DNA of 59,110 nt, taken from positions 1 to 59,110 of the IMG/VR virus record IMGVR_UViG_3300025626_000029. The stretch is one strand, 5' to 3'. A program made the position numbers and the translations under genes. Positions 580-59,110 of the stretch are shown in pieces (the first letter of the stretch is position 1; every line of letters begins with the position of its first letter). The DNA comes from a virus. Lineage: Duplodnaviria; Caudoviricetes. A model generated the notes under the pieces. It made no database searches. It was not told the origin of the DNA and saw only the letters and a list, made by a program, of their open reading frames with translations.

Positions 580-614
580 AGTTAACAGATAACCGAAGCG
601 CCCACTGGCGCTCC
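580..614 (-). repeat. Early-gene leader repeat copy 1 (hairpin + GGTTATCTGTTAACT)
   Basis: + strand agttaacagataaccgaagcgcccactggcgctcc, upstream of the ATG at 563. Confidence 0.95.
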
Positions 615-619
615 TTAAT

Positions 620-769
620 TCATAGCTCTACATTTAATAAAATGCAAAGCTCCTCGTAATAAATTCTCCCACTACTGCTTAAGCGGTCGTAATCCCAGCC
701 CATATTATAGACTAAATCTTGTATGCGCTCCATTTTCTCATTCCAAAGCATAGCTTCTTTATTCTTCAT
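620..769 (-). CDS. Small hypothetical early protein (49 aa)
   Basis: Hand-translated MKNKEAMLWNEKMERIQDLVYNMGWDYDRLSSSGRIYYEELCILLNVEL*; exactly fills the gap between two leader repeats. Confidence 0.75.
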   Translation of the reverse strand: MKNKEAMLWNEKMERIQDLVYNMGWDYDRLSSSGRIYYEELCILLNVEL

Positions 770-787
770 TGAATGTTTCTTTATTAA

Positions 788-822
788 TTAACAGATAACC
801 GAAGCGCCATTACTGGCGCTCC
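788..822 (-). repeat. Early-gene leader repeat copy 2
   Basis: ttaacagataaccgaagcgccattactggcgctcc. Confidence 0.95.
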
Positions 823-827
823 TTAAT

Positions 828-1283
828 TTAGGCTAACGATCTTTCGCCATTGTCAGCGAAGCTATAATACCCATCTTCACAAACGATAATATGGTCTAAT
901 ACCGATATATCAAAAAGATCTAAGTTCTTTTTAAGTTTCTTAGTTACTCTTTTGTCGTTCTCACTGGGGTTTTTATTCCCGCTTGGGTGGTTATGAGCGA
1001 CAATAACAGAGTGAGACGTGCCCTCAATCGCCCTTCTCGTTATAGCTGGAATATCTACACTACAAGAAGCACCGCATCCTTGCGTAATTGTTTCTAACCA
1101 TAGTACAGAATTCGCCTTATTCATATACATTACAATAAATAGCTCTTGTTCAAATATCTTTTTCCCAATGTGCGCCTTTAATAAATTGTAGGCATCACGT
1201 GAGCTCCTTATTTTCTGTTCTATAGGGTTCTTTTTAGCCTTCCATTTTACCTCAGCTTTCCCAATAAATACTGTTGTTTTCAT
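828..1283 (-). CDS. radC: RadC-like JAB domain protein
   Basis: JAB motif E...AHNHPSGNKNPSEND...LDHII; stand-alone domain without HhH region. Confidence 0.92.
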   Translation of the reverse strand: MKTTVFIGKAEVKWKAKKNPIEQKIRSSRDAYNLLKAHIGKKIFEQELFIVMYMNKANSVLWLETITQGCGASCSVDIPAITRRAIEGTSHSVIVAHNHPSGNKNPSENDKRVTKKLKKNLDLFDISVLDHIIVCEDGYYSFADNGERSLA

Positions 1284-1302
1284 CTTGTTTAAAGTTTAAA
1301 TT

Positions 1303-1336
1303 AGTTAACAGATAACCAAAGCGCCCAATGGCGCTC
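1303..1336 (-). repeat. Early-gene leader repeat copy 3
   Basis: agttaacagataaccaaagcgcccaatggcgctc. Confidence 0.95.
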
Positions 1337-1340
1337 TTTA

Positions 1341-1637
1341 CTATTCTAAATGTTCTCCAGCGTTGAAATAATCGTAGTAACGGTCGGCTCTGTATGGATA
1401 TTTTCCGTTTTCTATACATTCATCACACCAGCTCCCCGTTGCGTACCCGTACGCATCGTGACGGTCATATACGTTTTGATCATTACCACATCTACAAATT
1501 AACGACTCCTCCATATAAAATCCTCCTTCGCTGAATACGTCAGCGCATCCGAATTCCAAAAAGTCTTCCGCTTCCATCTTGTTATCAAAGGACGTGTATA
1601 AGTCCCCGTTTGCCTTGTATATCTTGTATACCTTCAT
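1341..1637 (-). CDS. Hypothetical early protein with possible Zn-binding Cys pairs
   Basis: ORF bounded by leader repeats; CRC...CDEC. Confidence 0.75.
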   Translation of the reverse strand: MKVYKIYKANGDLYTSFDNKMEAEDFLEFGCADVFSEGGFYMEESLICRCGNDQNVYDRHDAYGYATGSWCDECIENGKYPYRADRYYDYFNAGEHLE

Positions 1638-1650
1638 CTTAATTAGTTTT

Positions 1651-1689
1651 AGTTAACAGATAACCAAAAAGAGCGCCCACTGGCGCTCC
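1651..1689 (-). repeat. Early-gene leader repeat copy 4 (hairpin followed by U5 on the minus strand, terminator-like)
   Basis: agttaacagataaccaaaaagagcgcccactggcgctcc. Confidence 0.95.
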
Positions 1690-1693
1690 TTTG

Positions 1694-1930
1694 TTAGTGT
1701 TCAGCGTAAACGGACGGTATTTGTATTCCGCTTTCGCTCCAAAGCTCACTCTCCCAATTCACAGAGTAAAAAAGCTCCTCGTCTTGCAATTCCTCCCAAA
1801 TGTCCAGCACCTCATCCACAGAGTAGATTTCCCCTGACGAATTGAACACGAAAGAACCAACGTTGTAAGGGTTGGAACGATCCAACAGTTGCAGTTGTTG
1901 AACACTCCACAATTTCGTAGCATTTCCCAT
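1694..1930 (-). CDS. Small acidic hypothetical early protein
   Basis: ORF bounded by leader repeats. Confidence 0.75.
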   Translation of the reverse strand: MGNATKLWSVQQLQLLDRSNPYNVGSFVFNSSGEIYSVDEVLDIWEELQDEELFYSVNWESELWSESGIQIPSVYAEH

Positions 1931-1944
1931 TTTAATAGGTTTAA

Positions 1945-1980
1945 AGTTAACAGCTAACCAGGAGCGCCCACTGGCGCTCC
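1945..1980 (-). repeat. Early-gene leader repeat copy 5
   Basis: agttaacagctaaccaggagcgcccactggcgctcc. Confidence 0.95.
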
Positions 1981-1985
1981 CTTAA

Positions 1986-2237
1986 TTAATCAATAATGTA
2001 AACAAGTTGAGTAAGTAGTTCAACTTTAACGTTATCATTCACGAGCCCTTCGCAGTATTCATCTATGTGGTCAATGTAGCTCTTAGGATCAAAACAGTAC
2101 TTTTTATACTGCTCTGTAGCTTGTGAGTATACACCGTTAAACGCTGAGTCCATAATTTCAAGAAATTGCGAATAGGTACGATAGTTACCCGTTGCAAAGT
2201 CCAGCTCTGCATTGTCGTAGTTGCTTAATGTTTCCAT
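1986..2237 (-). CDS. Small acidic hypothetical early protein (first gene of leftward operon)
   Basis: ORF bounded by leader repeats. Confidence 0.75.
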   Translation of the reverse strand: METLSNYDNAELDFATGNYRTYSQFLEIMDSAFNGVYSQATEQYKKYCFDPKSYIDHIDEYCEGLVNDNVKVELLTQLVYIID

Positions 2238-2253
2238 TTTAATAAGTTTAATT

Positions 2254-2288
2254 AGTTAACAGATAACCAGCGCCCCATATAGGAGCGC
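2254..2288 (-). repeat. Early-gene leader repeat copy 6 (degenerate hairpin)
   Basis: agttaacagataaccagcgccccatataggagcgc. Confidence 0.9.
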
Positions 2289-2403: not shown

Positions 2404-2434
2404 TGTCAAAGAACCTTTGAACGTTGAACCGTTC
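2404..2434 (-). promoter_or_regulatory. boxB-like hairpin + boxA-like antitermination element
   Basis: Minus strand: GAACG-gttcaa-CGTTC hairpin (2419-2434) then GTTCTTTGACA (2404-2414), just downstream of a promoter, as in rrn leaders. Confidence 0.6.
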
Positions 2435-41054: not shown

Positions 41055-41072
41055 AATACGTAAATTTGCACT

Positions 41073-49400: not shown

Positions 49401-52195
49401 AAGAGGTTATAAAAATGGAAGAGATGAGATCTTCTAAAGTCTCTATAGGTATGAAAGGTCTAGGAAAGATTTTACGAGAACTCAACAAAGACCTTGGTGG
49501 TAACTGGGTGAGCCGTAAGTTGAAGGGTATAGATACTGAATACATTGTTAAAGCACGTATGTTAGCCAACAGATTTATGATGGAGGTTGACAAATCAGCT
49601 GTTGTTAATGATATACTTGAGTTGAAAAACGGTGAGCGTATACTTAAAAACTTAAGAGCTGTACGTGCTATCATAGATGAAAAGTCTGCTGCTTTGGTAA
49701 CAGATAGTACATTCTCTAAGCTGCCAAAAGAAACAAAAGAGAACATCTTAGAAAACATTGGTACATACATGCACCGCTCTTACAGGTTCTTTGACGATCC
49801 TACATACAAGTTTAAGTTCGGATCTATAGGCAAGTATCTAAATCTAGGAAAGAACGAAAGAAACAAAGCTGTACAAGAAGAGTTTTTAGTTCTTTATAAC
49901 AACTGGATTAACAAGCTTATTGACGAAGCTGGATACACCAGAGAGCAAGCTGTTGAGTCAACATTGGTAAAGGCTTCAAAAGGAAGCAATAAGGGATACT
50001 CTAAGAGAGAGTTGATTATAGATGAGGCTAAGAGAAATATAGACAACCTTATTAAAGAATACACTGAGCTTCTCGATAACAGAAAGAAGATGAGAGCTCA
50101 AGGTAAAGGAACCAATATTCCTAATAGTGCTTTCTTGGAAAAGAAGGATATACCGGCACACATCAGAGAGCTTCTTGGCGAAGTCAAAGATCCTATTGCA
50201 CAAATGGCGGCAACAGGTGAGGTGCTGTTTAACATCTACGAAAAAGGTAAGATGGTTGAGATGATTGCTGACGGCATAGAAGACAACCTAAAAGATGTTT
50301 ACGCTAAAGAAGAGTTTAAAAAAGATTTCTCTAAGCTTACTAAGCCACAGAAGAAATTGATATTAGACCGTGTTAATCAAGAGCCGATGATCATTTCCAA
50401 CAACAACATAAAGGAAAGACAGAAGGCTACATACAAACAGATTAACGACCCTATGAGTCCATTAAACACAAAGTGGGTTCATAATGATATCATTGAAATC
50501 ATACAGTCTAAACCAATTTACGAGACAAGCAAAGATGGTATAGAAGGTGGTTTCTGGAGAGGTTACTTCTTTGCATTAAAGAATCAACGTATGGTTAACG
50601 TTATATTGAATAGCCCGACATGGGGTAAGAACGTTATAGGTACAATGTATTTTAACTGGGCTAACGGATGGTTCAATCCTACGAAGCAAATGGTTAACGT
50701 TAAAAACATGGCTGAAGGTATTCTAAATGGAGACCAAAAGTACATGGATATGCTTACCGAAATGTCAGAGAATGGATTAATAGGTCAGTCATTTAATGTA
50801 AATCAAATCGGTCTTTCTGGATTCTCATACTATTTCTCTGTAACTGGAGACAGGTCCTTCTACGATAAGTACGTGGGTAAAGTACGTAATATGGGCAAGA
50901 AGGTTATTGCCGACTTAGGATCTACTTATGCTGCCGTTGATGATTTTGGTAAGATGTCTATCTATCAAAACGAAAGAGAGTCTTTTGCTAAGAAACTTTA
51001 TGGTGATGAGTACGCTAACCTAAACGACACACAGCAGAAAAAAGTTAGAGCTGCCGCTGCCGAACGTGTAAAAGACAACACTCCTACATGGGGTAGAATC
51101 ACTAAGCTTGGTAAAGCTGTACAGAGAATGCCTATTGGTGATTTCCAGGGTTTCCGTTTTGAAGCGTTTAGAAGTACCTATAGAATTATAGCGAACTTAA
51201 GAGACGATATTAAAACACTAACATCAGACGATACTTTATCTGACAAACAAAAATCCGAATACAGAAAAGACATCCGCAGAAAACTTACCGGTCTTGGATG
51301 GGTAGGAGTATCTGGTCCTTATGCTATAATCAAATCCGTTGCTTATGCTTACAGTGGTGTACTTGGTATGCTTGGGTTTGATGATGAAGAAGAAACAGAA
51401 CAGCAAAGAAAGAAACAAGCAGAGATGTTTGAGGCAGCAACAGTTGTTAGACCAGGATGGTTGAAAGACCACAAGGTTTGGGTTAAATCTGTTGATGATG
51501 ATTTAAAGGTTCGTGTATACGACTACACTGGATTTGATCCTTACGCTGAGGTCTTTGGATTTGATGGTTACTTTGGCGTATTAGGCGATGCTATACAGCC
51601 TAACATGGCTGTAAACCTTTTAACTTCTTTATCTAAGAATGAAGATGTTTATGGTAGATCAATCGCTGATCCTTCTGATCCAGCCTTTAAGCGTGTTATG
51701 GACATGGCTAAGTATGGAGGCTCTCAGTTCTTACCTTCTTTAATAACGTCTTCTTACAGAGATGCTTCTAAGAAAAACGAAGAGATAGAAAAAGCTGAAA
51801 GATACTTAAAGCTACAAGGTTTGAATCCAAAAGACTTTGACTTGCAAAGAGTAAATGTAGCAAAGGAAACTTTAAAGCTTATTTCTGAAAGAACCTTTGT
51901 ACGTGACTACGAGTATGATTTAGTACAGCAGTTTAGATACGCTGTTAAAGGATATAAGAGAAGCTTTGACGAGAACTACCTAACTACAGATTATCCAGAG
52001 CACAGAAAGAAAATCTTAGATGATGTAAGGGATATGTATTATTCTGTAATTAAGGTTGCTGCTTACAAAGGAAACTTTCAAAAAATAACGGATGTAAATA
52101 AAATTATTAAAACCAACTTTGATGATTTTGAAGAGTCCTATATTTTAAACAATACTGATTTGAGCAGTAAATTCCCAAAAGGATATTTTGATTAA
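43403..52195 (+). CDS. Giant (2930 aa) polyvalent ejection protein with internal RadC/JAB domain
   Basis: Position after nozzle; SENMFLVV...FIHNHPSGNLNRSSGD...LLDGLII at ~48450-48820. Confidence 0.75.
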   Translation: MPQDKLSVQDFASQIKAKYPEYNEYDDSVLVDAILEKYPVYKGQVDYAPKKKEATAGESLVGPSVSTEPTEVETPPNPFFESLKKADLAFGRGIAKTPILAELVSGSNSVVGGILDYANMAYDFARSSGMPGGFNSALFQTITSFDEPNLVEQAADIFANNSEYIRNTRNAQAGITKEEAEKGIIGLAQDGQIAKSAFLLFSGATEAIPSVALAATTGVGTVAVSAGGNKYREIENNPAYSPSEKLLFATAAGIVEGLAEKMGGADLAAFRKIFSTQASTEAYKQFFIQSVKASDIYKQMAKGGLEEGFEEALVNSFDQMVAGVKEGKPFEVNKLVDDFLVGMVAGGGTIVTANGMSARGSIKNEKARAKNAQQIKDLQDKKKEASQEQVNVIDDMIKKNISSLRTLIDQDVEFFGKFSTEDQKRIRDIDSGLNSIAKKRELTSDDSQLYLLQTEAVELLVEKDAIESKYRNNEENALIEKATDEQIDEIRNLEAVILDKKQRLENTESKTAADLIKSQIETLESELNKKITDIIGTVETKPAAPTETFVPEDEPTPVTIDLNVDKQAQPDRFEDLIDGRVTMKSPSGKQVAGRIVDEGAGKMSLLTDDGDIIELGNMDDLKGNFADEIGLAKAEEIVSIDGNKITIRGEQYENNYSDPLAAINRDDEGSIVSVNLDAANGTKRTFRGNIGDEVAYNIITSQYEQEELEKQLEILAKQDEKINQQLATAPETEVAPTQTATTNIEQAPEQEPEVAPQPKKRIQDNQVPVKKEVIRVKSNDGSYVDYTVTTNLDGSYKSSSITYDENGNETGRNTSTSIGKGSTALDAVKQNVADESLGDIVTVESTQSGEDFMNPKKKAALTSGQKNKLKSKQAPSEKPAVEKKSEPSTTGDTELQKLTAYVDYFKSNPEAKTKIPGPKFPKTYGLDISVEVYNLPNGRYDIEASYDVRRKGEIFGSTSMSSKTNYDLNGGSSFEQALDIAFSNIDNSLLNKSNPVYTESELAKIKGVFIENWKAETLIGRADVESKKTDNTDMITRFAGASDMSSGNPNRQWENEEDFYSKVTRGTGMSDEFKTQIGIAAVINNAKRDRDVINGKKPTSNNELVSKPLDSIERFRTVGKQGKIEYFAGREMSPGKGWKAVYGTPLASKLVDIDDVLVKAGLKKEESVEPVKAKPTVKTVTPKKDSKPIPSKSEIIDADLTTGMSLKSDKDAKNFQEIRKFGIGVVIETTPKKFISEHIKAVSAKYTFVAPGYSQNTIPEVQKVIIDFVKDYNAKINSIDKEARPFSQLIDSRKKAIDTIKSFVKEKADAIGVNKILFDSVTIDGVSKVLTFADAIKQIDDSEFSKLRNYTEENIKEEETIIAGVKLTKEEAKRAKGFIPSAEDLKNFFTTENGKGAEFTVPNKEWWEAAKKIMNLGSGVSVRLHIYEGGYDKNPKRKKTKDAPKNIMIHGSDKGAAKSVKDVLDFKYKGLKGIEAVSALEQDYFHNLANPWLKKTVTGTKIKFDPKEVGQVMWANNGMYGFELITKARAFDALSKGKGAKRLVMDGFDADSFSDYATESNLIQDIKDLRAEGLDVVKQYVSAVAKAFNETEDNVAKRLGFEALTKDEEVVAVKYPKTEELKGTDAAPSGAYTDQKTQVVNSKQLGPIRFKSSMVAKNKTEEFTLQQRIYERNDAFNLTGPEKINGPSDVAFLLRHLESATSENMFLVVSTKEGDYKTIWLGTGTQNSAGVDMVQVAGLIDAARFDLKGKEVFVTFIHNHPSGNLNRSSGDLNVYRKFSKYIKSVPGVTLLDGLIINLDSGKFSTFNSATSEKLDVKTPDSVVPATVYSFSRKELYEPFSERPGVLTDNTKAAMFLSKLKINNSGKFGHLILDQSLAPTYFAFVDPNISAAEWARTIAVDAGRHGITTIIVGPIGDPKVLSTTNTLKKMSEVQVIDTKNTSGNTSIFEGNVEYVTVEESTPEFKEKQGYTPLTDEELDYPSRLQSALEKIKGFKWNQVQKEVIKMEEMRSSKVSIGMKGLGKILRELNKDLGGNWVSRKLKGIDTEYIVKARMLANRFMMEVDKSAVVNDILELKNGERILKNLRAVRAIIDEKSAALVTDSTFSKLPKETKENILENIGTYMHRSYRFFDDPTYKFKFGSIGKYLNLGKNERNKAVQEEFLVLYNNWINKLIDEAGYTREQAVESTLVKASKGSNKGYSKRELIIDEAKRNIDNLIKEYTELLDNRKKMRAQGKGTNIPNSAFLEKKDIPAHIRELLGEVKDPIAQMAATGEVLFNIYEKGKMVEMIADGIEDNLKDVYAKEEFKKDFSKLTKPQKKLILDRVNQEPMIISNNNIKERQKATYKQINDPMSPLNTKWVHNDIIEIIQSKPIYETSKDGIEGGFWRGYFFALKNQRMVNVILNSPTWGKNVIGTMYFNWANGWFNPTKQMVNVKNMAEGILNGDQKYMDMLTEMSENGLIGQSFNVNQIGLSGFSYYFSVTGDRSFYDKYVGKVRNMGKKVIADLGSTYAAVDDFGKMSIYQNERESFAKKLYGDEYANLNDTQQKKVRAAAAERVKDNTPTWGRITKLGKAVQRMPIGDFQGFRFEAFRSTYRIIANLRDDIKTLTSDDTLSDKQKSEYRKDIRRKLTGLGWVGVSGPYAIIKSVAYAYSGVLGMLGFDDEEETEQQRKKQAEMFEAATVVRPGWLKDHKVWVKSVDDDLKVRVYDYTGFDPYAEVFGFDGYFGVLGDAIQPNMAVNLLTSLSKNEDVYGRSIADPSDPAFKRVMDMAKYGGSQFLPSLITSSYRDASKKNEEIEKAERYLKLQGLNPKDFDLQRVNVAKETLKLISERTFVRDYEYDLVQQFRYAVKGYKRSFDENYLTTDYPEHRKKILDDVRDMYYSVIKVAAYKGNFQKITDVNKIIKTNFDDFEESYILNNTDLSSKFPKGYFD

Positions 52196-52210
52196 CTAAT
52201 ATATATAATT

Positions 52211-52435
52211 ATGAAAAAGTTCGTAGAGATTTTTAATAATGACAACAGCTACAATGAGAAGACGGTAATAGGTTTTTTATCGTTTGCTGTTATGGTATTG
52301 GTAATGCTTGCCGATGTAATCACTGGAGCGTTTGGAGCACACCTACCTATCAATGAGTTTACTTATAACAGTTTTGTTATTGTTACTTTAGGTAGCTTTG
52401 GTATCGCAGGACTAGAGAAGTTTGCTAAAAAATGA
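52211..52435 (+). CDS. Holin-like two-TM protein
   Basis: Two hydrophobic helices, basic C-terminus, directly upstream of endolysin. Confidence 0.65.
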   Translation: MKKFVEIFNNDNSYNEKTVIGFLSFAVMVLVMLADVITGAFGAHLPINEFTYNSFVIVTLGSFGIAGLEKFAKK

Positions 52436-52917
52436 TAAGAGCTATGGAGTTAGAGGTACTACGATTCAGCAGCCAAGATGATTCAACAAATGGAATATTA
52501 TTTGATGTTACAGGAGGACAAAGAAAGTTCTTGTGCTATACCCTTGAAGACGAATATCGTGAAGATAAAGTCATGGGTGAAACTAGAATTCCCGCAGGCA
52601 CATATAGAATAACACTTAGAACTGTTGGTGGATTCCACGGCAGATACAAAAAAAAGTATGGCGAGATGCACAAAGGAGCGTTATGGGTACGTGACGTTCC
52701 TAACTTTGAGTATATCCTTATTCATACTGGTAATACTGACGAACATACTGCTGGGTGTCTTCTTTTGGGTGATTCTCAACAAGCGAACTTTGGCTCTAGT
52801 AATGGTATGGTGGGGTCAAGTGTTAATGCGTATAAAAGAGTCTATCCTCCGATTGCTAAGGCACTTGAAGAAGGGGAATCGGTAAGTATTACTTATGTAG
52901 ATTTTGACACTGTATGA
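52432..52917 (+). CDS. DUF5675-family putative endolysin
   Basis: CYTLED...RIPAGTY...ILIHTGNT...TAGCLLLG. Confidence 0.75.
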   Translation: MIRAMELEVLRFSSQDDSTNGILFDVTGGQRKFLCYTLEDEYREDKVMGETRIPAGTYRITLRTVGGFHGRYKKKYGEMHKGALWVRDVPNFEYILIHTGNTDEHTAGCLLLGDSQQANFGSSNGMVGSSVNAYKRVYPPIAKALEEGESVSITYVDFDTV

Positions 52918-53330
52918 AATGGCTGGTAAAATTAACTCTATTGCTGTTATTAACGAGTTGCAGCGCTCAATGGCACTTAAAGAAAGCGGTGCAGAAGGAT
53001 CCAGCAATTCTGGAAAAAGACACGCTGGTTGTAACGACCACGGTTGTCAGCCCACCTGTGGCTATCACGGATACTGTGACTTTGAAGCAACACGATACTA
53101 TTACAATAGTGAAGGATCGTCTGAAAGTACAGCTAATAAAGGTGAACGACACGATTACTATAAACGCAGAATGCGCCTCGGATACGATAGTTCAGACTAT
53201 TAATGTTCCTTACGATAGGGTAGTATATATAGAAAAAGAATCTATATGGGACAAGATAAAGAACCTAGCTATCTATATGGGGCTGGCGTTCTTATTGTTT
53301 AAGTTAATAATGAAACAATTTGACAAGTAA
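52914..53330 (+). CDS. Unimolecular spanin-like lipoprotein
   Basis: Lipobox LLLTSC, beta-rich middle, C-terminal TM LAIYMGLAFLLFKLIM; follows endolysin. Confidence 0.65.
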   Translation: MKWLVKLTLLLLLTSCSAQWHLKKAVQKDPAILEKDTLVVTTTVVSPPVAITDTVTLKQHDTITIVKDRLKVQLIKVNDTITINAECASDTIVQTINVPYDRVVYIEKESIWDKIKNLAIYMGLAFLLFKLIMKQFDK

Positions 53331-53421
53331 CAGAAAAAAGAAAAATCAACATACTGTAAAATATTGTGAAATAGAACCTAAAGAATGTGACGGTAAGTGC
53401 TGTTACTCAAAGAGGAAAAAC

Positions 53422-53447
53422 AAAAAAGGAGGCTAATGCCTCCTTTT
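53422..53447. terminator. Bidirectional terminator between convergent modules
   Basis: aaaaaa-ggaggc-taat-gcctcc-tttt. Confidence 0.9.
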
Positions 53448-53515
53448 CTGATCTGTTAACTTAAACTCTATGAACCATCCAAGAGTGGGGGAGAGAGATG
53501 AAATGATCAATAGAA
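53422..53515 (-). ncRNA. Candidate ~90-nt small RNA antisense to the early-gene leader repeat
   Basis: Minus-strand TATCTTAG (53522-53529), ~90 nt with no convincing minus-strand ORF, then hairpin+U6; contains AGUUAACAGAU. Confidence 0.45.
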
Positions 53516-53545
53516 CTGGTGCTAAGATACTAATATTCTTTATAT

Positions 53546-53581
53546 AAAAAGAAAGAGGGGTAGAATAATTTCCACCCCTCC
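53546..53581 (-). terminator. Terminator after leftward mini-gene
   Basis: gaggggtagaa-taat-ttccacccctc hairpin with T-rich tail on the minus strand. Confidence 0.75.
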
Positions 53582-53588
53582 CTTAATT

Positions 53589-53711
53589 CTAACCGCTACA
53601 GCTCTCACATTCCGGGTTATCGATCGAGCACTGAGCATTCTCGTTCTTATCACTGGTTTCAAGCTCGTTGATAAAGTCAGCAAAGCTGTCACTCATCTGT
53701 AATTCAGACAT
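53589..53711 (-). CDS. 40-aa peptide resembling the redox-active C-terminal tail of class I ribonucleotide reductase alpha subunit
   Basis: Hand-translated MSELQMSDSFADFINELETSDKNENAQCSIDNPECESCSG*. Confidence 0.7.
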   Translation of the reverse strand: MSELQMSDSFADFINELETSDKNENAQCSIDNPECESCSG

Positions 53712-53762
53712 AGTATTATTGTTTAATGGTTAGAAAAATAAAGAGCTTGTAAAGGTAATCAA

Positions 53763-54140
53763 TTAACCCTTATACTGGAAGCCATGGTAACCCCTGTAAT
53801 GCAGCTGTGTTTCCAACAGATGGGCTACTTTAGGGTCTGAATATTGACCTACAATCTCGTAACCCTCAACAATTTTACCTTTCTTGTTGTGATCTTTCAT
53901 GCGGTGCAGGAGATCCTTTGTCATACCTACGTAATGTTCCTCCGGCAAGTAGTAAACAGTATATATTACATTACCACTCTCGTCTAAATCACCATAGAAT
54001 CTATTGCGTTCAGAGTCAATTTTTCTTTTACAGCTCTTGCAATAAGAACCTACACCAGATTTCCTAGAATTGTCTTTATGGAACAGGTGTTTTCTTTTTA
54101 ACCTATTGCACTTGCCGCATTTATACCTGCCCCTTTGCAT
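53763..54140 (-). CDS. Zn-finger + GIY-YIG-like putative endonuclease
   Basis: CGKC...CKSC then VYYLPEEHYVGMT...R...H...E. Confidence 0.6.
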   Translation of the reverse strand: MQRGRYKCGKCNRLKRKHLFHKDNSRKSGVGSYCKSCKRKIDSERNRFYGDLDESGNVIYTVYYLPEEHYVGMTKDLLHRMKDHNKKGKIVEGYEIVGQYSDPKVAHLLETQLHYRGYHGFQYKG

Positions 54141-54378
54141 TTTCTTCCAGGTGTTGGTGTACAGAAGACTTGATCATATCGAGCTCTAAACGCATTTTGT
54201 TTTTAAACTCTTTTGTTAATTCAAGTATCTGTTCTTCATCAAGCACTGGATTGCCGTAGCCATCGTGTAGGCTTTCATACAGCTCATTGATCATTTCGTG
54301 CATCATTGCACAGGCATTAAAGAAATCAATGCTCACGGAGTTGGTATCCATAGAGCTTGATACGACATAGGAACTCAT
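54121..54378 (-). CDS. Hypothetical protein
   Basis: Helical ORF in operon; true start probably at the MDTNS methionine. Confidence 0.65.
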   Translation of the reverse strand: MSSYVVSSSMDTNSVSIDFFNACAMMHEMINELYESLHDGYGNPVLDEEQILELTKEFKNKMRLELDMIKSSVHQHLEENAKGQV

Positions 54379-54703
54379 CTTTATTTAGGTTTTTGTTGAA
54401 CTTGGTACTCTGTTTTATAAAGTATTTAGGTGTGTCATCAATTGCGTACTCATTATCTTTTAAGAAGTCGCTAACAAATTTAGCACACATAATAGCGTTG
54501 TCTACATCGTACCTTGCGTTGTACTCTACCTCTAATGCATATTGTTCTGTTGTAAAAAGATCGTAATTGGTTAATGCTTCCTTTAGGCTTTTGGTATAGC
54601 TCTCTTTATGTTTTTTTCGTATTGTCCAGTGTCTTCCAGCGTAAAACGCATTCAATGATGGAGGTTTAGGCAAATACAGTACTATTTCGTTGTTTGTGTC
54701 CAT
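54326..54703 (-). CDS. RusA-like Holliday junction resolvase
   Basis: LPKPPSLN...YDVDNAI...DFL...DD motif. Confidence 0.75.
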   Translation of the reverse strand: MDTNNEIVLYLPKPPSLNAFYAGRHWTIRKKHKESYTKSLKEALTNYDLFTTEQYALEVEYNARYDVDNAIMCAKFVSDFLKDNEYAIDDTPKYFIKQSTKFNKNLNKDEFLCRIKLYGYQLREH

Positions 54704-54733
54704 ATACTTTATAACAAAATAGTGATTAGCTGT

Positions 54734-56560
54734 TTATAAAACCAGCTCTCCTTGCATTTTTTTTAACATAAGGGGTTTATACAGTGGACCTTGTGCTGTA
54801 AACGTTCTAAAACCTGTGTTTGATTCAGTCATTTGGAATAAGAATGGCTCATTATATACAGTTGGAGCACCCCCGGTTTCTGTCTCACGAACCTTGCGCA
54901 CATGGAATTCCATTGTCCTACGAGTGTCGTAGTCCGGAGAAGACACTTTTCTATGGAACGTAAGGAAACAATCGGCTCTATTCACGAACTTACCCCCGCC
55001 TTCAGTCATTGATGCTGTTGGCGCTACAGGTAGTCCATCTTCACCACGCATGCGTTGTGCCTCAGTAACTGCGTGCATATTTAACCAAACAGCCATCTTC
55101 ATACGATTAGCAAACGTTAAGAATTCAGAAGCTGCTTCATAATGGTACTCGTGGCTATTCTTATTTATCCCTTGAGCCATATCTATGCGTAAACTGTTGT
55201 ATGGATCTACAAAGAACCCATCGTAAGGTCCTTCGTGGTGTATAATCTTTTCAGCGAATAGTATAAGCTCTGAGTAGCTGTATACATCGTTGTTGCTTAT
55301 AACCTTGTAGTGTTTATTTACCCAGTTGTAAGCATACTTAATCATCTCGGTATCCATCTGTCGTATAGGCATATCAACAATGAACTCCATAAGCCTCATC
55401 TTAATAGATGCTGTTTTATTCTCAGAGCTGTATATGATCCACTTCCAGCCGTGTTGTACAGATGCGTTAATCATAAGGTGTAGTGCTAATGTAGTCTTAC
55501 CTACGTTGCTGATACCGTTTATGATTGTAAAGTCTTTCTTGTATCTAAAGTTTCTGTCAAGGATGTCGTTACCAGTTGTTAGACCCACCTCTATAAGCCC
55601 AGAGGCGTATTCTGTAATCCAGCTAAAATCAAGGTCATCATTAGATACAAAGCTAAAGTCATTATCGTTGAGTTGCATCTGGCGTATTGCCTTACTCTCG
55701 CCATCTATGACATCACGGATAGGCATCTTCTTACCCGATTCAATTGCATCGTCTATAGCCTTACGTGCGTTGTCTTCGTTATCTACTTCTTTCTTTAGTA
55801 TCTCACGGAGCAATACTCTGCGAGCTTCTTCTTCCTCTATTCTACCAGCTGCTACAAAACCCCCGGCTAAATGTGCGGCTTTTACGAGCTCGGTATGCTT
55901 CTCTCCATCTTGAGCACGTCTAATTATAGAAGAAATAACAGCAAGCTTGTTGTAGTCAGTGATAACCTCTTTATGTGAGGCAACCTGTACATCTTCAGTA
56001 TCGGATACTATAGATGAGAATGTCTTGCTGTTGGTGTTTATAATTATGTCTGGATCATACGACTCAAAACACGCACGAGATTCATTCTTACCAGAGGGAT
56101 CTACTTCTAACCCGTAGGTGCGCTCCATGTATTTTTCAATAGCCTTGAAGTGCTCACGGTGTTTTGATGGTGTACTTACCTTGACTAGAGCCTTGAGTCC
56201 ATCTCCACTTGGCGATACCCAACAGGCAAACACGTAGTCATCTGTAGCTAGAATAGTTTTTGAAACCTCTACATCTAGGTGGTCAAAGTCAAGAACGATA
56301 AGACCATTATGCGATACGAGTGAGTCATCTTTACGTAACTCAAACTGACCGCTAAAACATACTACTGGTAGCTCTTTCTTAGCTTCCTTGTCCGGAACCT
56401 GGTTTCCGTTCTGATCTATACTGTGAATCCCACGGACCCTCTCTATCAAGGATTTGCTCTTGCCACTCTTTATACGCTCCAGTGCTGTTTGTAACGTAAT
56501 AAGGTGAGGACCCTGTATGTCCCTTATATCCTTGAATATCGTTACCGTTAGATTCTCCAT
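54734..56560 (-). CDS. Primase-helicase (BT4734/VirE-N-like primase domain + SF4 DnaB-like helicase)
   Basis: LPVVCFSG, LIVLDFDH, SPSGDGLK in the N-half; Walker A GISNVGKT, FFVDPYN, HVRKVR in the C-half. Confidence 0.85.
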   Translation of the reverse strand: MENLTVTIFKDIRDIQGPHLITLQTALERIKSGKSKSLIERVRGIHSIDQNGNQVPDKEAKKELPVVCFSGQFELRKDDSLVSHNGLIVLDFDHLDVEVSKTILATDDYVFACWVSPSGDGLKALVKVSTPSKHREHFKAIEKYMERTYGLEVDPSGKNESRACFESYDPDIIINTNSKTFSSIVSDTEDVQVASHKEVITDYNKLAVISSIIRRAQDGEKHTELVKAAHLAGGFVAAGRIEEEEARRVLLREILKKEVDNEDNARKAIDDAIESGKKMPIRDVIDGESKAIRQMQLNDNDFSFVSNDDLDFSWITEYASGLIEVGLTTGNDILDRNFRYKKDFTIINGISNVGKTTLALHLMINASVQHGWKWIIYSSENKTASIKMRLMEFIVDMPIRQMDTEMIKYAYNWVNKHYKVISNNDVYSYSELILFAEKIIHHEGPYDGFFVDPYNSLRIDMAQGINKNSHEYHYEAASEFLTFANRMKMAVWLNMHAVTEAQRMRGEDGLPVAPTASMTEGGGKFVNRADCFLTFHRKVSSPDYDTRRTMEFHVRKVRETETGGAPTVYNEPFLFQMTESNTGFRTFTAQGPLYKPLMLKKMQGELVL

Positions 56561-56771
56561 TTGCTCTTTGATGTTTAAGTTCAGTTTCCAGATGTACTAT
56601 TGCTTTCTCAATATCTTGAGTCGCTGGGTTGCCCTCTTTCTTGCCAGCTCTCAGTAGGTAGGCTATTGCCACACCAAGGTTGTAATTATCCTCTTGAAAA
56701 TCAAGAACGACATCCATTGCCTCTATATTCTTGTACTTACCTATGTAGTACTTGGGTGTATTATCAGTCAT
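56379..56771 (-). CDS. DUF3310-like protein
   Basis: PKYY...IEAMDVV...YNLGVAIAYLLRAGKK...QDIEKAI; tail overlaps the primase gene. Confidence 0.7.
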   Translation of the reverse strand: MTDNTPKYYIGKYKNIEAMDVVLDFQEDNYNLGVAIAYLLRAGKKEGNPATQDIEKAIVHLETELKHQRANGESNGNDIQGYKGHTGSSPYYVTNSTGAYKEWQEQILDREGPWDSQYRSERKPGSGQGS

Positions 56772-56970
56772 CGAGTGAGTCTTTAATTAATCTACCTATC
56801 TTCTCTGGATCAAGGTGCTGTATTTTTCTGAGCTTTCTACGCTCTTCTTTCTTGGCTTTGTCGTAATCACTCTTTGAGTTCTCAATCCCAAGGTTAACAA
56901 ACATACGTGCGTTTTGCATAAGTACGCAGTCAATAACCTTCTTGTGTTCTTTGTTGTCTAAGTATCCCAT
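56764..56970 (-). CDS. Hypothetical protein
   Basis: Overlapping stop/start in operon. Confidence 0.7.
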   Translation of the reverse strand: MGYLDNKEHKKVIDCVLMQNARMFVNLGIENSKSDYDKAKKEERRKLRKIQHLDPEKIGRLIKDSLDD

Positions 56971-57242
56971 TGGAAATCTTCTATAAAAATTGGTGTGTAT
57001 TCTCCTACATAAGTATTAAATGTATTGTACTCTAGGAAGTCCATAGCATCCTCTACAGACTCTCCTTCTTCTACAAGTATATCTATACATTTGTTCCTTG
57101 AGTAAACAGCTCTAAGGGAGTTTGGATCGATACCTATCAAAGCATCATCAAATCCAGCAGCTAACAACGGTCCTTCATCACTGTGGTCTCCGTAGTGTTC
57201 AATGATTAAATCTTTAATTGACATAGTGCTATTTTTTCTCAA
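56958..57242 (-). CDS. Hypothetical phage protein
   Basis: GFDDALIG...AVYS...YNTFNTYVGEYTPIF; start probably at MSIKD. Confidence 0.75.
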   Translation of the reverse strand: MRKNSTMSIKDLIIEHYGDHSDEGPLLAAGFDDALIGIDPNSLRAVYSRNKCIDILVEEGESVEDAMDFLEYNTFNTYVGEYTPIFIEDFQWDT

Positions 57243-57288
57243 GGTATAAACATTTACTTATTTAAACAAGTCATGTTTTGTAACGTGA

Positions 57289-57381
57289 TCATTCTTCTTT
57301 CATTTTATAAAGCAGGTAAGCTACAAACATCAGAGCAGAAAGAATAACTACCGTCCATTCTATAAACAGCTGATTAATCAT
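57289..57381 (-). CDS. 30-aa single-TM peptide
   Basis: Hand-translated MINQLFIEWTVVILSALMFVAYLLYKMKEE*. Confidence 0.5.
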   Translation of the reverse strand: MINQLFIEWTVVILSALMFVAYLLYKMKEE

Positions 57382-57554
57382 TTTCTATACCGTTTTTACG
57401 TAGGTCTTCTATACATGCGTCTACGATACGTGCGTAAACGCTACTCTTTACCTTTGTCCGCATCATATTCTTTGAGGCGTATCTCGCTATGCGAACTATT
57501 GTTTCTTTGGATTCCGGTGTTCTCGATGATTCGTAATTCGTTTTCATACTTTCA

Positions 57555-57758
57555 TTATCTAATGTTTGTCCACTGGACGGGTTTAACAGTTTTAGGTGCT
57601 TCGGGCTTATAACTTATACCCCACTTATTTATATACCTGTGTATTGTTCTTGCTGTTATCCCTAAATGCTTTGCAGCAATAGTAGGACTATTGTACTTTT
57701 TCAACGCATACATAACGTATATGCGTGTGTGGTAATCTATGTTTAAAATTTCAGCCAT
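57555..57758 (-). CDS. Fis-like HTH protein
   Basis: ALKKYN...AAKHLGITARTIHRYINKWGI. Confidence 0.75.
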   Translation of the reverse strand: MAEILNIDYHTRIYVMYALKKYNSPTIAAKHLGITARTIHRYINKWGISYKPEAPKTVKPVQWTNIR

Positions 57759-57937
57759 CTCTTTCTTCTCTCGTATTTACGTATTAAACTCCCTAAGTTA
57801 TTCAGATGATCTACAACAGCGTCAGTATATTCTGTTGAACTTGATATGATCACTGTATTTATGATCTCCCAGCGTATTTCATTTAAGTACCTATTTACGT
57901 ACCTATAATGCGCTCTCTTGCGAATGTAGTTTTTCAT
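57743..57937 (-). CDS. Hypothetical protein
   Basis: Coupled ORF in leftward operon. Confidence 0.65.
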   Translation of the reverse strand: MKNYIRKRAHYRYVNRYLNEIRWEIINTVIISSSTEYTDAVVDHLNNLGSLIRKYERRKRWLKF

Positions 57938-58128
57938 TCCTCAAATGTTTTTATAATGTATCGGTATACTTTGTCGTAAGCTTCCCACTTAGCTCTTATA
58001 GTATTGATATGATCTTTAAGCTCTTGATTCCGGGGATCTGTGGTAAGCTTTCTTTCAAACTCTTCCAGGTAGTAGGACAGGAATTCACACTCTCTACCGA
58101 CCATCTGTTTTAAATCTTGATGTCTCAT
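57934..58128 (-). CDS. Hypothetical protein
   Basis: ATGA-coupled ORF. Confidence 0.65.
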   Translation of the reverse strand: MRHQDLKQMVGRECEFLSYYLEEFERKLTTDPRNQELKDHINTIRAKWEAYDKVYRYIIKTFEE

Positions 58129-58592
58129 TTATTCGGGCTTTTATCATATACTGTTTGTGCTTCTATCCAGGTACACTTTTCTTTAGGAACCCTATAGAAT
58201 AAATCATTACCCAATCTATCAGATGTTTGTATTTTCAACTCTTCAGTATACTCCTCTTTGTATATTATTGATGAGTGAGCAATACACATTGCTGTTGTTT
58301 TTTTGCAGATCAGTGCGTAGTAAAACCCTTGTTCTTTCCATTTCTTCTTCCTGCCTAGGAAAGAGACGGTACTAAATTTAAATGACTTCATATCTGTCCA
58401 CGGGTAGTTAATCTTTACTTCTGCTTCAAAGCTATGTTCGTTACCGTGATGATCTAGTACCGTTAGGTCTACTCCATAATCTTCTATATCGTTGAAGACG
58501 TGAACTACCCAATCTTGTTTGCGTAGCCAACTAATTAAGATGTTTCTACCAAACGCATCATTTTCATCGTAAGATGATTGAACAAATTTCAC
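58125..58592 (-). CDS. PD-(D/E)XK nuclease-like protein
   Basis: EDYGVDL...FEAEVK motif. Confidence 0.55.
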   Translation of the reverse strand: MKFVQSSYDENDAFGRNILISWLRKQDWVVHVFNDIEDYGVDLTVLDHHGNEHSFEAEVKINYPWTDMKSFKFSTVSFLGRKKKWKEQGFYYALICKKTTAMCIAHSSIIYKEEYTEELKIQTSDRLGNDLFYRVPKEKCTWIEAQTVYDKSPNK

Positions 58593-58659
58593 TTCTTTCC
58601 TTTATTAGTGAGGTACATAAACATCACACTCACGAGCAAAGTGATTATTACTATCTCTT

Positions 58660-58884
58660 TCATTTTATTTCCCCTTCGTCTCCCCACATTAAATAAATCG
58701 CAACAAATGATGAGAAGAATAAAAAATCAAAGTGTATGTCTAATTCTAAACGTCTTTGAACTCTGCCCGTGTCAAGGTTGTTTATAAAACCAAAGCCCCA
58801 CCAATCAAATTGCAGACTCGGTAATAAGAACAGCGTTGTATACGAACGCCATTTAGCATATCTTTCTCCTATCCCTATTTTCAT
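58660..58884 (-). CDS. Hypothetical protein
   Basis: Coupled ORF. Confidence 0.55.
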   Translation of the reverse strand: MKIGIGERYAKWRSYTTLFLLPSLQFDWWGFGFINNLDTGRVQRRLELDIHFDFLFFSSFVAIYLMWGDEGEIK

Positions 58885-59006
58885 TTCTCTTTGGTGTTAA
58901 AGGTTTCTAATTTATCCAGCGAATCTTTTACTATAGCATACCAAGCCCATTTGTCCTTGTCAGCGTTCCAAAGTTTCTCATACATCTCAAGTAGTATCTC
59001 TCTCAT
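58881..59006 (-). CDS. 41-aa hypothetical protein
   Basis: Hand-translated MREILLEMYEKLWNADKDKWAWYAIVKDSLDKLETFNTKEK*; ATGA-coupled to the next gene. Confidence 0.6.
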   Translation of the reverse strand: MREILLEMYEKLWNADKDKWAWYAIVKDSLDKLETFNTKEK

Positions 59007-59110
59007 TTCTCTTTTGGTTATTTGTGTCTATCTCCTTTAAGGACATTTTTTGATTGACTAATGCGCTGAAGATTATCTAATCTGTTATTTGATATATCTC
59101 CATCTATATG

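What the first reader, a model, noticed from the sequence alone, without database searches (positions are those of the whole stretch)
53422..53529. Candidate trans-acting sRNA, ~51 kb away, antisense to the leader shared by all early genes
Seen: between the lysis cassette and the replication genes, the minus strand has a -7-like element (TATCTTAG, 53522-53529), ~90 nt with no convincing ORF, and a hairpin+U6 terminator (53422-53443). It is insulated upstream by another terminator. The RNA would read ...CAUAGAGUUUAAGUUAACAGAUCAG-hairpin. AGUUAACAGAU is the exact complement of AUCUGUUAACU in four of the six early leaders (genes starting 563, 1283, 1637, 2237). It pairs over 9-10 nt with the other two, and GUUUAA can pair further with the UUAAAC that follows in several leaders. 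The target lies about 10-30 nt upstream of each start codon. Inference: one phage sRNA could shut off, or trigger processing of, the whole early-gene array through a standard address tag on each cassette. Alternative: ATCTGTTAAC (GTTAAC palindromic core) is a protein-binding DNA site with a copy here.
Basis: partly seen in the sequence, partly recalled or inferred. Interest (0 to 1): 0.85.

Follow-up and report, generated by a model that had tools for sequence, protein, structure and literature searches.

The report
Candidate phage sRNA antisense to early leaders
A short non-coding stretch between two terminators in a marine Bacteroidota-type phage carries an inverted partial copy of the tag that precedes every early gene, so it could make a small antisense RNA, but sister phages have changed the pairing core and no expression data exist.

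Summary
ATCTGTTAACT occurs exactly five times: four early leaders on the minus strand and 53451-53461 on the plus strand. The match is not chance. It is about 25 nt of inverted homology to the early-gene "head" (1 of 500 shuffles reach its score).

On the early (minus) strand the 105-nt spacer looks like a roughly 98-nt non-coding unit:
- It has a -7-type box. This is TATCTTAG in 9 of 9 clade-A sequences and a perfect TATATTTG in 4 of 4 sister sequences.
- No reading frame is conserved.
- It ends at a strong terminator.
- The antisense stretch lies in its best-conserved part: 15 of 21 columns are invariant, against 15 of 50 in the 5' part.

Three results count against the shut-off model:
- All four sister sequences read ATCTGAAAAC at the junction. 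The one sister with its early array on record, G002, keeps the head in 9 of 9 leaders.
- Predicted pairing falls from -18.8 to -13.2 kcal/mol.
- The copy lacks three of the head's most conserved bases.

Metatranscriptome contigs do not cover the spot.

Verdict: the sRNA gene is plausible but its regulatory role is unproven.

The parts
53421..53450 (.). Bidirectional intrinsic terminator. The core is GGAGGC-TAAT-GCCTCC at 53428-53443. It reads A-tract + hairpin + T6GT5 on the minus strand and hairpin + TTTTCTG on the plus strand. The stop codon of the 38-aa plus-strand ORF lies in its loop.
   Evidence: minus-strand terminator 53450-53421. (sequence). The hairpin core is kept in all 13 junction sequences, with a longer loop in G002 and an extra base in one arm in L259.
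53451..53475 (+). Inverted partial copy of the early-cassette head: ATCTGTTAAC-TTAAACT-CTATGAA. The first 11 nt are the exact 11-mer.
   Evidence: exact 11-mer; local alignment scores are 21-29 on the plus strand and 12-17 on the minus strand. The shuffle maximum has mean 17.8, and 1 of 500 shuffles reaches 29; the copy lacks G-4 and G-3 (each 25 of 25 in true heads) and T-1 (24 of 25).
53445..53472 (-). Linker of the putative RNA (CAUAGAGUUUAAGUUAACAGAUCAGAAA). It contains the proposed seed AGUUAACAGAU and is predicted unpaired between a weak 5' hairpin and the terminator.
   Evidence: MFE structure. (duplex energies); 15 of 21 columns are invariant, against 15 of 50 in the 5' part (Fisher p = 0.0017).
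53522..53529 (-). -7-type promoter box TATCTTAG, one departure from TAnnTTTG. The aligned octamer in the sister sequences is a perfect TATATTTG.
   Evidence: Consensus from PMC6847099. The phage's own late genes use TATCTTTG.
53418..53517 (-). Putative non-coding RNA of about 98 nt. The start is inferred 4-5 nt after the box and the end is placed in the U-run. Neither end has been mapped.
   Evidence: Inference. No conserved ORF. No Rfam family at gathering score.
53552..53583 (-). Intrinsic terminator that ends the early/replication block, directly after the 40-aa ORF at 53589-53711. It insulates the small unit upstream.
   Evidence: Conserved in all junction sequences.
53320..53436 (+). 38-aa Cys-rich ORF (..CEIEPKECDGKCCY..), the last ORF on the plus strand before the junction.
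   Evidence: Its DNA is well conserved in both clades.
580..2264 (-). The six early-cassette heads, which are the proposed targets. The 11-mer lies at 580-590, 786-796, 1303-1313, 1651-1661, 1945-1955 and 2254-2264. Each reads GC hairpin + GGTTATCTGT(T/A)AA(C/T) + AT-rich 14-20 nt + ATG.

Best explanation
The window is a near-complete genome of an uncultured marine podophage of the Flavobacteriia-phage type. Each of its early genes is preceded by a 'head': a GC-rich hairpin, then GGTTATCTGT(T/A)AA(C/T), then an AT-rich stretch and the ATG.

The finding's 11-mer belongs to about 25 nt that are an inverted, partial copy of such a head. The copy sits in a 105-nt non-coding spacer between two intrinsic terminators, where the plus-strand virion and lysis block and the minus-strand early/replication block converge.

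Read on the early strand, the spacer has the parts of a small RNA gene: a host-type -7 box, about 98 nt without a conserved frame, and a strong terminator. The head-antisense stretch is its best-conserved part and is predicted to be single-stranded.

My best single reading is that this is a phage sRNA that arose by inverted duplication of a head. In the window's clade it can pair with the region from about -31 to -8 of every early cistron, within a polycistronic early RNA, and so lower their translation or trigger cleavage.

Shown: the sequence anatomy, the homology, the conservation pattern and the predicted pairing.
Inferred: that the RNA is made, that the heads lie inside the early RNA, and any regulatory effect.
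For: - Identity of the window: the terminase matches Flavobacterium and Cellulophaga phages, and the record is 98% complete.
- Not chance: there are 5 exact 11-mers, and 0 of 100 shuffles reach the 9 hits at <=1 mismatch. Homology to heads extends over 17-27 aligned columns, and 1 of 500 shuffles reaches the top score.
- Promoter: the box keeps T, A, T, T and G in all 9 distinct aligned sequences. It is TATCTTAG in 9 of 9 clade-A sequences and a perfect TATATTTG in G002, L264, L259 and L265, inside a 14-nt block identical in those four while its flanks differ. The phage's late genes use TATCTTTG boxes, two of them placed directly behind terminators as here.
- Terminators: both are called by the scan and both are conserved.
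- Non-coding: the start codon is lost in 2 of 9 clade-A sequences and in all 4 sister sequences, and a homopolymer run varies in length.
- Conservation: 15 of 21 linker columns are invariant against 15 of 50 in the 5' part, p = 0.0017.
- Pairing in the window: leaders give -12.3 to -21.1 kcal/mol (mean -18.8), against 42 controls with mean -7.1 (sd 2.3, best -15.8).
- Heads are probably inside the RNA. There is no canonical -7 box on the early strand within the arrays of the window (0) or G001 (0), and G002 has 2, both inside its first gene. A conserved leader with a boxA-like element and a covarying hairpin lies upstream of the first head.
- Context: a distant relative, MW202828.1, has two tRNA matches (47.3 and 37.2 bits, gathering score 29) at the same junction on its early strand.
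Against: - No expression evidence exists.
- In clade A the box departs from consensus at T-6, which is nearly invariant in F. johnsoniae.
- The body of the RNA has no significant structure. z-scores for the part without the terminator are +0.8, -1.5, +0.6 and -1.5. RNAalifold keeps only the terminator and finds 0 compensatory pairs.
- The seed is not conserved. All 4 sister sequences have TT in place of AA at its centre, while G002 keeps ATCTGT in 9 of 9 heads and shows no compensating change.
- With the whole 5' part, G002's RNA pairs with its leaders no better than with controls or shuffles (-14.6 against -14.9 and -15.1). In the window, 4 of 42 control leaders matched or beat most early leaders in that same analysis.
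- The head's most conserved bases (G-4 and G-3, 25 of 25; T-1, 24 of 25) are not complementary to the RNA, so something else selects for the head.
- Within clade A, 0 changes in the 11-mer is not remarkable. By my own count on the alignment, roughly a tenth of spacer sites vary.
- The conservation test rests on only three or four independent lineages, and the alignment of the 5' part is uncertain.
Confidence: 0.33

Rival explanations
1. Vestigial copy. An early-type cassette or head once lay here in the opposite orientation, or an old inversion ended in a head. The spacer is now just the gap between two terminators, and the complementarity is inherited rather than selected. Any transcript is a by-product.
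For: - The plus-strand layout mimics a cassette: hairpin, 7-nt spacer, head-like 10-mer, TTAAAC, and an ATG after 9 nt.
- The copy has lost three of the head's best-conserved bases.
- Different lineages keep different parts. Clade A has G-ATCTGTTAAC, G002 and L264 have G-ATCTGAAAAC, and L259 and L265 have T-ATCTGAAAAC.
- The mini-ORF has decayed.
- The RNA body has no significant structure.
Against: - An inert relic should decay evenly, but the linker is far better conserved than the rest of the spacer (15 of 21 against 15 of 50). That conservation reaches 13-26 nt from the hairpin, beyond what a terminator U-tract needs.
- The aligned -7 box is conserved, and it is perfect in the sister lineages.
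Confidence: 0.25
2. A real small RNA whose main job is not the early heads. Its target could be clade-specific or could be recognised by another part of the RNA, such as the conserved C/U-rich stretch. The head complementarity in clade A would then be only a leftover of its origin.
For: - The gene anatomy is the same as above.
- In G002 and L264 the exact complement of their own linker 11-mer lies 23-33 nt upstream of the primase/helicase ATG. That leader is the best of 24 tested in G002, at -18.1 kcal/mol.
- A UCUCCCC-A-C stretch is kept in all lineages.
Against: - The primase site lies inside a coding region and varies as a Lys/Glu codon.
- Clade-A member L249 has the same site but the other linker, so there is no covariation.
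- By my own rough estimate, a bare 11-mer match elsewhere in a 64-kb genome has a chance of about 0.08 anywhere and about 0.002 in a leader on the sense strand. The search was also post hoc.
Confidence: 0.2
3. A DNA-level site. A phage or host protein that reads (A/G)ATCTG-type sites binds the heads, the palindrome CAGATCTG in the early-operon leader, and this junction copy. Orientation then matters little and no RNA pairing is involved.
For: - Distant relatives carry perfect palindromes in their early regions: GTGTCGTTAACGACAC 14 times in MW202828.1, which shares the GTTAAC core, and AATTAATCCGGATTAATT in L247, whose 10-nt core AATCCGGATT occurs 7 times. Perfect palindromes are typical of dimeric DNA-binding proteins.
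- AAACAGATCTGAAGA is invariant in the early leader of the window, G001 and G002.
- ATCTG and AAC are the only head bases kept at the junction in all lineages.
Against: - The bases shared by heads, leader and junction amount to about 5 nt, too few to define a site.
- The window's head is not palindromic beyond GTTAAC.
- No candidate binding protein was identified.
- The conservation pattern at the junction extends 3' into AACT..AACTCTAT, unlike that of true heads, which are conserved 5' in GGTT.
Confidence: 0.15
4. A working head on the plus strand. It would act as a promoter or processing signal that makes a short plus-strand RNA or peptide, or that defines the 3' end of the late transcript.
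For: The hairpin and head-like element lie in the same order relative to plus-strand transcription as in the early cassettes, and a 25-aa ORF starts 9 nt after the element.
Against: - G-4, G-3 and T-1 of the head are missing in all 13 junction sequences except for T-1, which L259 and L265 keep.
- The ATG is ATA in L255 and L262 and absent in the sister lineages.
- The 25-aa frame is broken by indels.
Confidence: 0.05

Closest known systems
Phage antisense RNAs that control the phage's own genes: P22 sar and lambda OOP (review PMC12197685, passages and table rows seen)
   Same: They are short (68-77 nt) non-coding phage RNAs that pair with a phage mRNA and lower its expression.
   Different: OOP is encoded opposite its target (listed as cis in the review's table). 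sar is listed there as trans and pairs with ant mRNA. Here the RNA would act in trans, about 5-9 kb away on the same strand, on six to ten separate cistrons through a shared tag. That review has 0 occurrences of 'Bacteroid'.
P1/P7 c4 RNA and P4 CI RNA immunity systems
   Same: As I recall, these are small phage RNAs with short sequences complementary to repeated sites in an early transcript. They act in trans to block translation or to cause termination of early or anti-repressor genes. This is the nearest functional analogue.
   Different: Those RNAs are processed from the regulated operon itself in temperate elements of enterobacteria and have two target sites. Here the unit has its own promoter and terminator, the phage shows no lysogeny genes in what I scanned, and the targets are many. 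Membership was not tested.
Bacteroidota primary-sigma promoters, -33 TTTG / -7 TAnnTTTG (PMC6847099, passages seen)
   Same: The box at 53529-53522 and its sister-clade counterpart fit the -7 element. The spacing to the inferred start follows the 4-5 nt rule given there.
   Different: The clade-A box has A at T-6, and no clear -33 element is present. The paper notes that the -33 element is weak in general.
Intercistronic hairpin and processing sites of phage early operons (T7 RNase III sites) and lambda nut boxA/boxB antitermination (recalled)
   Same: The early array shows a hairpin between every pair of cistrons. There is also an upstream leader with a boxA-like GTTCTTTGACA and a hairpin whose loop is constant and whose stem covaries.
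   Different: Nothing here shows cleavage or antitermination. The conserved GGTTATCTGT next to each hairpin has no counterpart that I know of.

Membership tests
Trans-acting base-pairing sRNA (generic definition) | Own promoter | tested here: inconclusive
   The -7 box is present and aligned in all lineages. It is perfect in 4 of 4 sister sequences and has one departure (T-6 to A) in 9 of 9 clade-A sequences (consensus). No transcription start has been mapped.
Trans-acting base-pairing sRNA (generic definition) | Intrinsic terminator at the 3' end | tested here: met
   The scan calls 53450-53421 on the minus strand. The hairpin is followed by T6-T9 in all 13 junction sequences.
Trans-acting base-pairing sRNA (generic definition) | Non-coding | tested here: met
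   Only 25-aa frames are present. They are broken by start-codon loss and indels in relatives.
Trans-acting base-pairing sRNA (generic definition) | The RNA is made | not testable with these tools
   Only contigs of metatranscriptome runs could be laid, and none of the listed pieces covers 53404-53670. Contigs cannot show starts, ends or strand.
Trans-acting base-pairing sRNA (generic definition) | A seed complementary to its targets and conserved or covarying with them | tested here: not met
   The seed is exact in clade A. In 4 of 4 sister sequences its two central bases are changed, while G002 keeps its heads in 9 of 9 cassettes with no compensating change. Residual pairing is -13.2 kcal/mol against -9.5 for controls.
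Early-cassette head (hairpin + GGTTATCTGTWAAY + AT-rich + ATG), as defined from 25 copies here | G-4, G-3, T-2, T-1 directly before ATCTGT | tested here: not met
   The heads have G-4 25/25, G-3 25/25, T-2 25/25 and T-1 24/25. The junction has TCTG, so only T-2 is kept.
Early-cassette head (hairpin + GGTTATCTGTWAAY + AT-rich + ATG), as defined from 25 copies here | A GC-rich hairpin 0-7 nt upstream, and a gene start 12-22 nt downstream | tested here: inconclusive
   The hairpin is present at 7 nt. The ATG lies at 9 nt in 7 of 9 clade-A sequences, is ATA in 2, and is absent in the 4 sister sequences. No gene is conserved.
Any Rfam 15 family | A match at the family's gathering score | tested here: not met
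   The whole window gives 0 matches at gathering score. In 53300-53700 the best minus-strand sRNA match is FopS at 18.6 bits against a gathering score of 56, E = 1.8. These matches lie over the terminator hairpin.
P1 c4 / P4 CI type immunity RNA | Processed from the regulated operon, with repeated complementary sites in the early leader | not tested
   No sequences or models of these RNAs were used. The resemblance is functional and recalled.

The most novel reading that the evidence does not exclude
The locus is an sRNA gene born by inverted duplication of an early-gene head, and its aim was later changed by a single dinucleotide flip in the seed (AA to TT or the reverse). In the window's clade the RNA addresses every early cassette through the shared head. 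In the sister clade the flipped seed is an exact 11-nt complement of a site 23-33 nt upstream of the primase/helicase start. A lytic Bacteroidota phage would then use one small RNA as a re-programmable switch over its early and replication genes.
Probability: 0.1. Interest if true: 0.8.

Novelty: new variant of a known kind. Interest (0 to 1): 0.42.

Why it matters
Two points would be new if the RNA is made and acts on the heads. The one review I searched for the word (PMC12197685) has no occurrence of 'Bacteroid', so it would be a base-pairing regulatory RNA in a phage of Bacteroidota, a phylum without classical Shine-Dalgarno-based initiation. It would also show one RNA addressing a whole array of exchangeable single-gene cassettes through a standard tag, which would explain how newly acquired early genes come under common control.

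The natural AA/TT difference between clades offers a ready-made compensatory test.

If the RNA is not made, the locus is an ordinary terminator spacer holding a decayed repeat. The open question then moves to what reads the strongly conserved head GGTTATCTGT.

Tried and rejected
- Expression. One search found 6 RNA runs with small shares of the stretch's words. Contigs of 4 of them (X15-X18) were laid on 50000-59110. Listed pieces stop at 53403 (X18) and resume at 53671 (X17), and none covers the spacer. Contigs cannot show strand, ends or level, and short RNAs are unlikely to be assembled, so this says nothing either way.
- Known RNA families. None was found at gathering score, and only sub-threshold matches over the terminator hairpin appeared.
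- Conserved RNA structure. RNAalifold keeps only the terminator. The 5' hairpins predicted separately for the two clades use different registers of a CU/AG-rich sequence and are not significant. I dropped structure as an argument.
- Cultured relatives. megablast and blastn against the phage collection gave no match. Only protein-level relatives were found.
- Scans of IMG/VR for the head motif. Nearly all rows were single hits that I take to be chance. Only the contigs of G001 and G002 had several copies.
- Protein-guided loci. One search returned only 98%-identical relatives (L007, L008). One search returned 9 loci: 3 close ones and 6 distant ones (L243-L248, 29-42% identity). The distant ones lack the head motif and could not test the seed.
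- Metagenome scan. Of 16 stretches, 10 are relatives (L249, L251, L253, L255, L258, L260, L262, L263, L264, L259). Six show no similarity beyond the 19-mer and were dropped (L250, L252, L254, L256, L257, L261).
- G003 (L265). Its contig ends 4.6 kb beyond the junction and holds no early array, so its heads are unknown.
- Phage RNA polymerase as reader of the heads. No RNA-polymerase family was found in the 25 ORFs scanned against PHROGs or in the 6 scanned against Pfam, and none by phmmer against PDB sequences. The ESM Atlas gave only leads to 'polyvalent protein' domains for the giant protein (best score 0.90). I rejected the idea that the heads are N4-type hairpin promoters, but only weakly.
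- Canonical host promoter inside the heads. TATCTGTT departs from TAnnTTTG at two near-invariant positions.
- ARAGORN found no tRNA at the MW202828.1 junction, whereas Rfam's tRNA model did.
- In one search one leader (1931) was cut one base off its ATG. This was corrected to 1930.
- Supplementary files of papers were not opened.

Full report
WHAT THE WINDOW IS
The window is a whole IMG/VR virus record of 59,110 bases, rated 98% complete. Its terminase finds Flavobacterium, Cellulophaga and related phages at 41-50% identity. Portal, virion and tail-fibre proteins fill the plus strand from about 10 to 52 kb.

The minus strand carries an array of small early genes at 1-2300 and a replication block at 53.6-59.1 kb, which includes a primase/helicase and RusA-like and endonuclease-VII-like proteins. 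The finding lies where the plus-strand and minus-strand blocks converge.

THE OBSERVATION
- ATCTGTTAACT is exact in four early leaders on the minus strand and once on the plus strand at 53451-53461. The other two leaders have one mismatch each (9 hits at <=1 mismatch, 2.54 expected, 0 of 100 shuffles reach 9).
- Two minus-strand intrinsic terminators flank the spacer, at 53450-53421 and 53583-53552.
- TATCTTAG at 53529-53522 differs from the Bacteroidota -7 consensus TAnnTTTG at one position, T-6.
- No frame of note exists.

WHAT THE 'LEADER' IS
I collected 25 copies of the element in three phages: 6 in the window, 10 in G001 (63,213 bases, primase 98% identical) and 9 in G002 (64,035 bases, about 75% DNA identity around the junction).
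- Each copy reads GC-rich hairpin, 0-5 nt, GGTTATCTGT(T/A)AA(C/T/A), AT-rich 12-22 nt, then ATG. The hairpin stems differ between copies while staying paired.
- G-4, G-3, T-2, A0, C2, T3, G4, T5, A7 and A8 are the same in 25 of 25 copies. T-1 and T1 are the same in 24 of 25.
- The head is not a canonical host promoter, because TATCTGTT misses two near-invariant positions.
- No RNA-polymerase family was found in the 25 ORFs I scanned against PHROGs, in the 6 scanned against Pfam, or by phmmer against PDB sequences. The Atlas gives only 'polyvalent protein' leads for the 2930-aa protein.
- No canonical -7 box lies on the early strand inside the arrays of the window or G001.
- About 100-190 nt upstream of the first head, the three phages share three things: a promoter-like box (perfect TATATTTG in G002 only), a boxA-like GTTCTTTGACA, the block AAACAGATCTGAAGA, and a hairpin with a constant loop and a covarying stem.

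I therefore think the array is read as one RNA and that the heads lie inside it. This is inference.

THE JUNCTION COPY
- On the plus strand the 11-mer sits 7 nt after a hairpin and is followed by TTAAAC and an ATG, like a head.
- Local alignment shows homology over 17-27 columns. Scores are 21-29 on the plus strand and 12-17 on the minus strand, and 1 of 500 shuffles reaches 29.
- The complementarity is therefore that of an inverted copy and not a coincidence.
- The copy lacks G-4, G-3 and T-1. Its ATG is ATA in 2 of 9 clade-A sequences, and its 25-aa frame is broken by indels. It is not a working head with a gene.

COMPARATIVE TEST
I recovered the junction from 13 sequences.
- Nine belong to the window's clade: the window, L249, L251, L253, L255, L258, L260, L262 (the metagenome twin of G001) and L263. 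All nine have ATCTGTTAAC.
- Four do not: G002, L264, L259 and L265, of which the last two are nearly the same. All four have ATCTGAAAAC.
- G002 is the only one of the four with its early array on record. It keeps ATCTGT in 9 of 9 heads and has no head with the compensating change.
AGTT and CAGAT on either side are invariant in all lineages.

PAIRING ENERGIES
- With the 28-nt linker, the window's RNA gives -12.3 to -21.1 kcal/mol on its six leaders (mean -18.8). The 42 other leaders have mean -7.1 (sd 2.3, best -15.8).
- G002's RNA gives -11.1 to -16.1 on its nine leaders (mean -13.2). Its 15 controls have mean -9.5 (sd 3.4), and its best partner is the primase/helicase leader at -18.1.
- With the whole 5' part of the RNA the contrast is smaller in the window: -18.7 against -12.0, with four controls at -20.3 to -22.7. 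It is absent in G002: -14.6 against -14.9, with shuffles at -15.1.

ANATOMY OF A SMALL GENE
- On the early strand the aligned box is TATCTTAG in 9 of 9 clade-A sequences and a perfect TATATTTG in the other 4. In those four it sits inside a 14-nt block that is identical while its flanks differ.
- Five of the six consensus-defining positions are invariant in the 9 distinct aligned sequences.
- The phage's late genes use TATCTTTG, two of them directly behind terminators.
- With the 4-5 nt rule the RNA would start at 53517-53516 and end in the U-run, which gives about 98 nt.
- The linker (positions 59-79 of the aligned unit) has 15 of 21 invariant columns, against 15 of 50 in the 5' part (p = 0.0017). 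This conservation reaches further from the hairpin than a terminator needs.
- Against a structured RNA: only the terminator is significant, and no Rfam family matches.
- A distant relative, MW202828.1, has two tRNA matches at the same junction on its early strand. Small RNA genes at this spot are therefore not odd in this phage group.

SYNTHESIS
The complementarity is real and inherited. The spacer is under some constraint and has the parts of a small early-strand RNA gene.

Whether that RNA regulates the early array is open. In favour are the specific, extended pairing in the window's clade and the position of the target just upstream of each start. Against are the changed seed in the sister lineages without compensation, the fact that the head's best-conserved half is not paired, the imperfect box in clade A, and the lack of any RNA evidence.

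My odds are:
- 0.33 for an sRNA acting on the heads.
- 0.20 for a real sRNA with another main target.
- 0.25 for an inert relic.
- 0.15 for a DNA site.
- 0.05 for a working plus-strand head.

COMPARISON WITH WHAT IS KNOWN
Phage antisense RNAs such as P22 sar and lambda OOP control phage genes (PMC12197685, passages seen). P1 c4 and P4 CI RNAs, which I recall but did not read here, act in trans on repeated sites in early transcripts and are the nearest analogue in mechanism.

This case would differ in four ways: its own promoter and terminator, six to ten targets carried by exchangeable cassettes, its origin by inverted duplication of the target, and its host phylum. I did not test membership in those families. 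I file it as a possible new variant of a known kind.

LIMITS
- The three or four lineages are few and related.
- Coordinates of the RNA ends are inferred.
- My literature check was two full-text searches and two papers read in passages. It does not show that nothing is in print.
- Supplements were not opened.

Noticed in passing
window 2358-2414 (minus strand), with L019 and L139 counterparts: Upstream of the first early head, the window, G001 and G002 share three elements: a boxA-like GTTCTTTGACA, an invariant AAACAGATCTGAAGA (with the palindrome CAGATCTG), and a hairpin with the constant loop AGTAGTGC. The hairpin stem differs but stays paired (ACCCC/GGGGT, GCTTC/GAAGC, GCTAG/CTAGC). This layout is nut-like and suggests antitermination across the intercistronic hairpins.
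   Followed up: partly
L139 11780-11790 (G002), L264, and window 56583-56593 (minus): In G002 and L264 the exact complement of their own junction 11-mer lies 23-33 nt upstream of the primase/helicase ATG, inside the upstream ORF. The window has ATCTGGAAACT there. Clade-A member L249 has the sister-type site but the clade-A linker.
   Followed up: partly
L006/L017 (MW202828.1) 43748-55166; L247 576-6220: Distant relatives carry their own perfect palindromes in the early region. MW202828.1 has GTGTCGTTAACGACAC 14 times, often 20-35 nt before an ATG and sharing the GTTAAC core. L247 has AATTAATCCGGATTAATT, whose 10-nt core AATCCGGATT occurs 7 times.
   Followed up: partly
L006 523-630 and 637-697 (MW202828.1): There are two tRNA matches (Rfam 47.3 and 37.2 bits) at that phage's convergent junction, the first unusually long at 108 nt. 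ARAGORN called neither one.
   Followed up: partly
window 3221, 12486, 17482, 28459, 28899, 29256 (plus strand): Six copies of TATCTTTG lie in intergenic DNA on the plus strand, among the virion-module genes. Two sit directly behind hairpin terminators, and TAAATTTG and TACATTTG boxes lie only 4 nt before an ATG at 41061 and 14951. These are probably the phage's host-type promoters.
   Followed up: partly
window 53320-53436 (plus strand): A 38-aa Cys-rich ORF (CEIEPKECDGKCCY) is well conserved in all junction sequences. Its stop codon lies in the loop of the terminator hairpin.
   Followed up: no
window 58816-59110: One metatranscriptome run (X15) shows a summed contig depth of about 1600 here, with many contigs that share only about 58878-58915 and run on unlike on both sides. 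This looks like a short stretch shared with other organisms or elements.
   Followed up: no
window 56379-56771 and 54734-56560 (minus strand): The 130-aa nucleotide-kinase-like ORF overlaps the primase/helicase ORF by about 180 nt in another frame.
   Followed up: no
window 43403-52195 (plus strand): The 2930-aa protein has a RadC-like JAB domain at residues 1690-1803 (Pfam 31.4 bits). Atlas features point to 'polyvalent protein' domains (LPD14, LPD22) and not to an RNA polymerase. A free RadC gene lies in the early array at 828-1283.
   Followed up: partly
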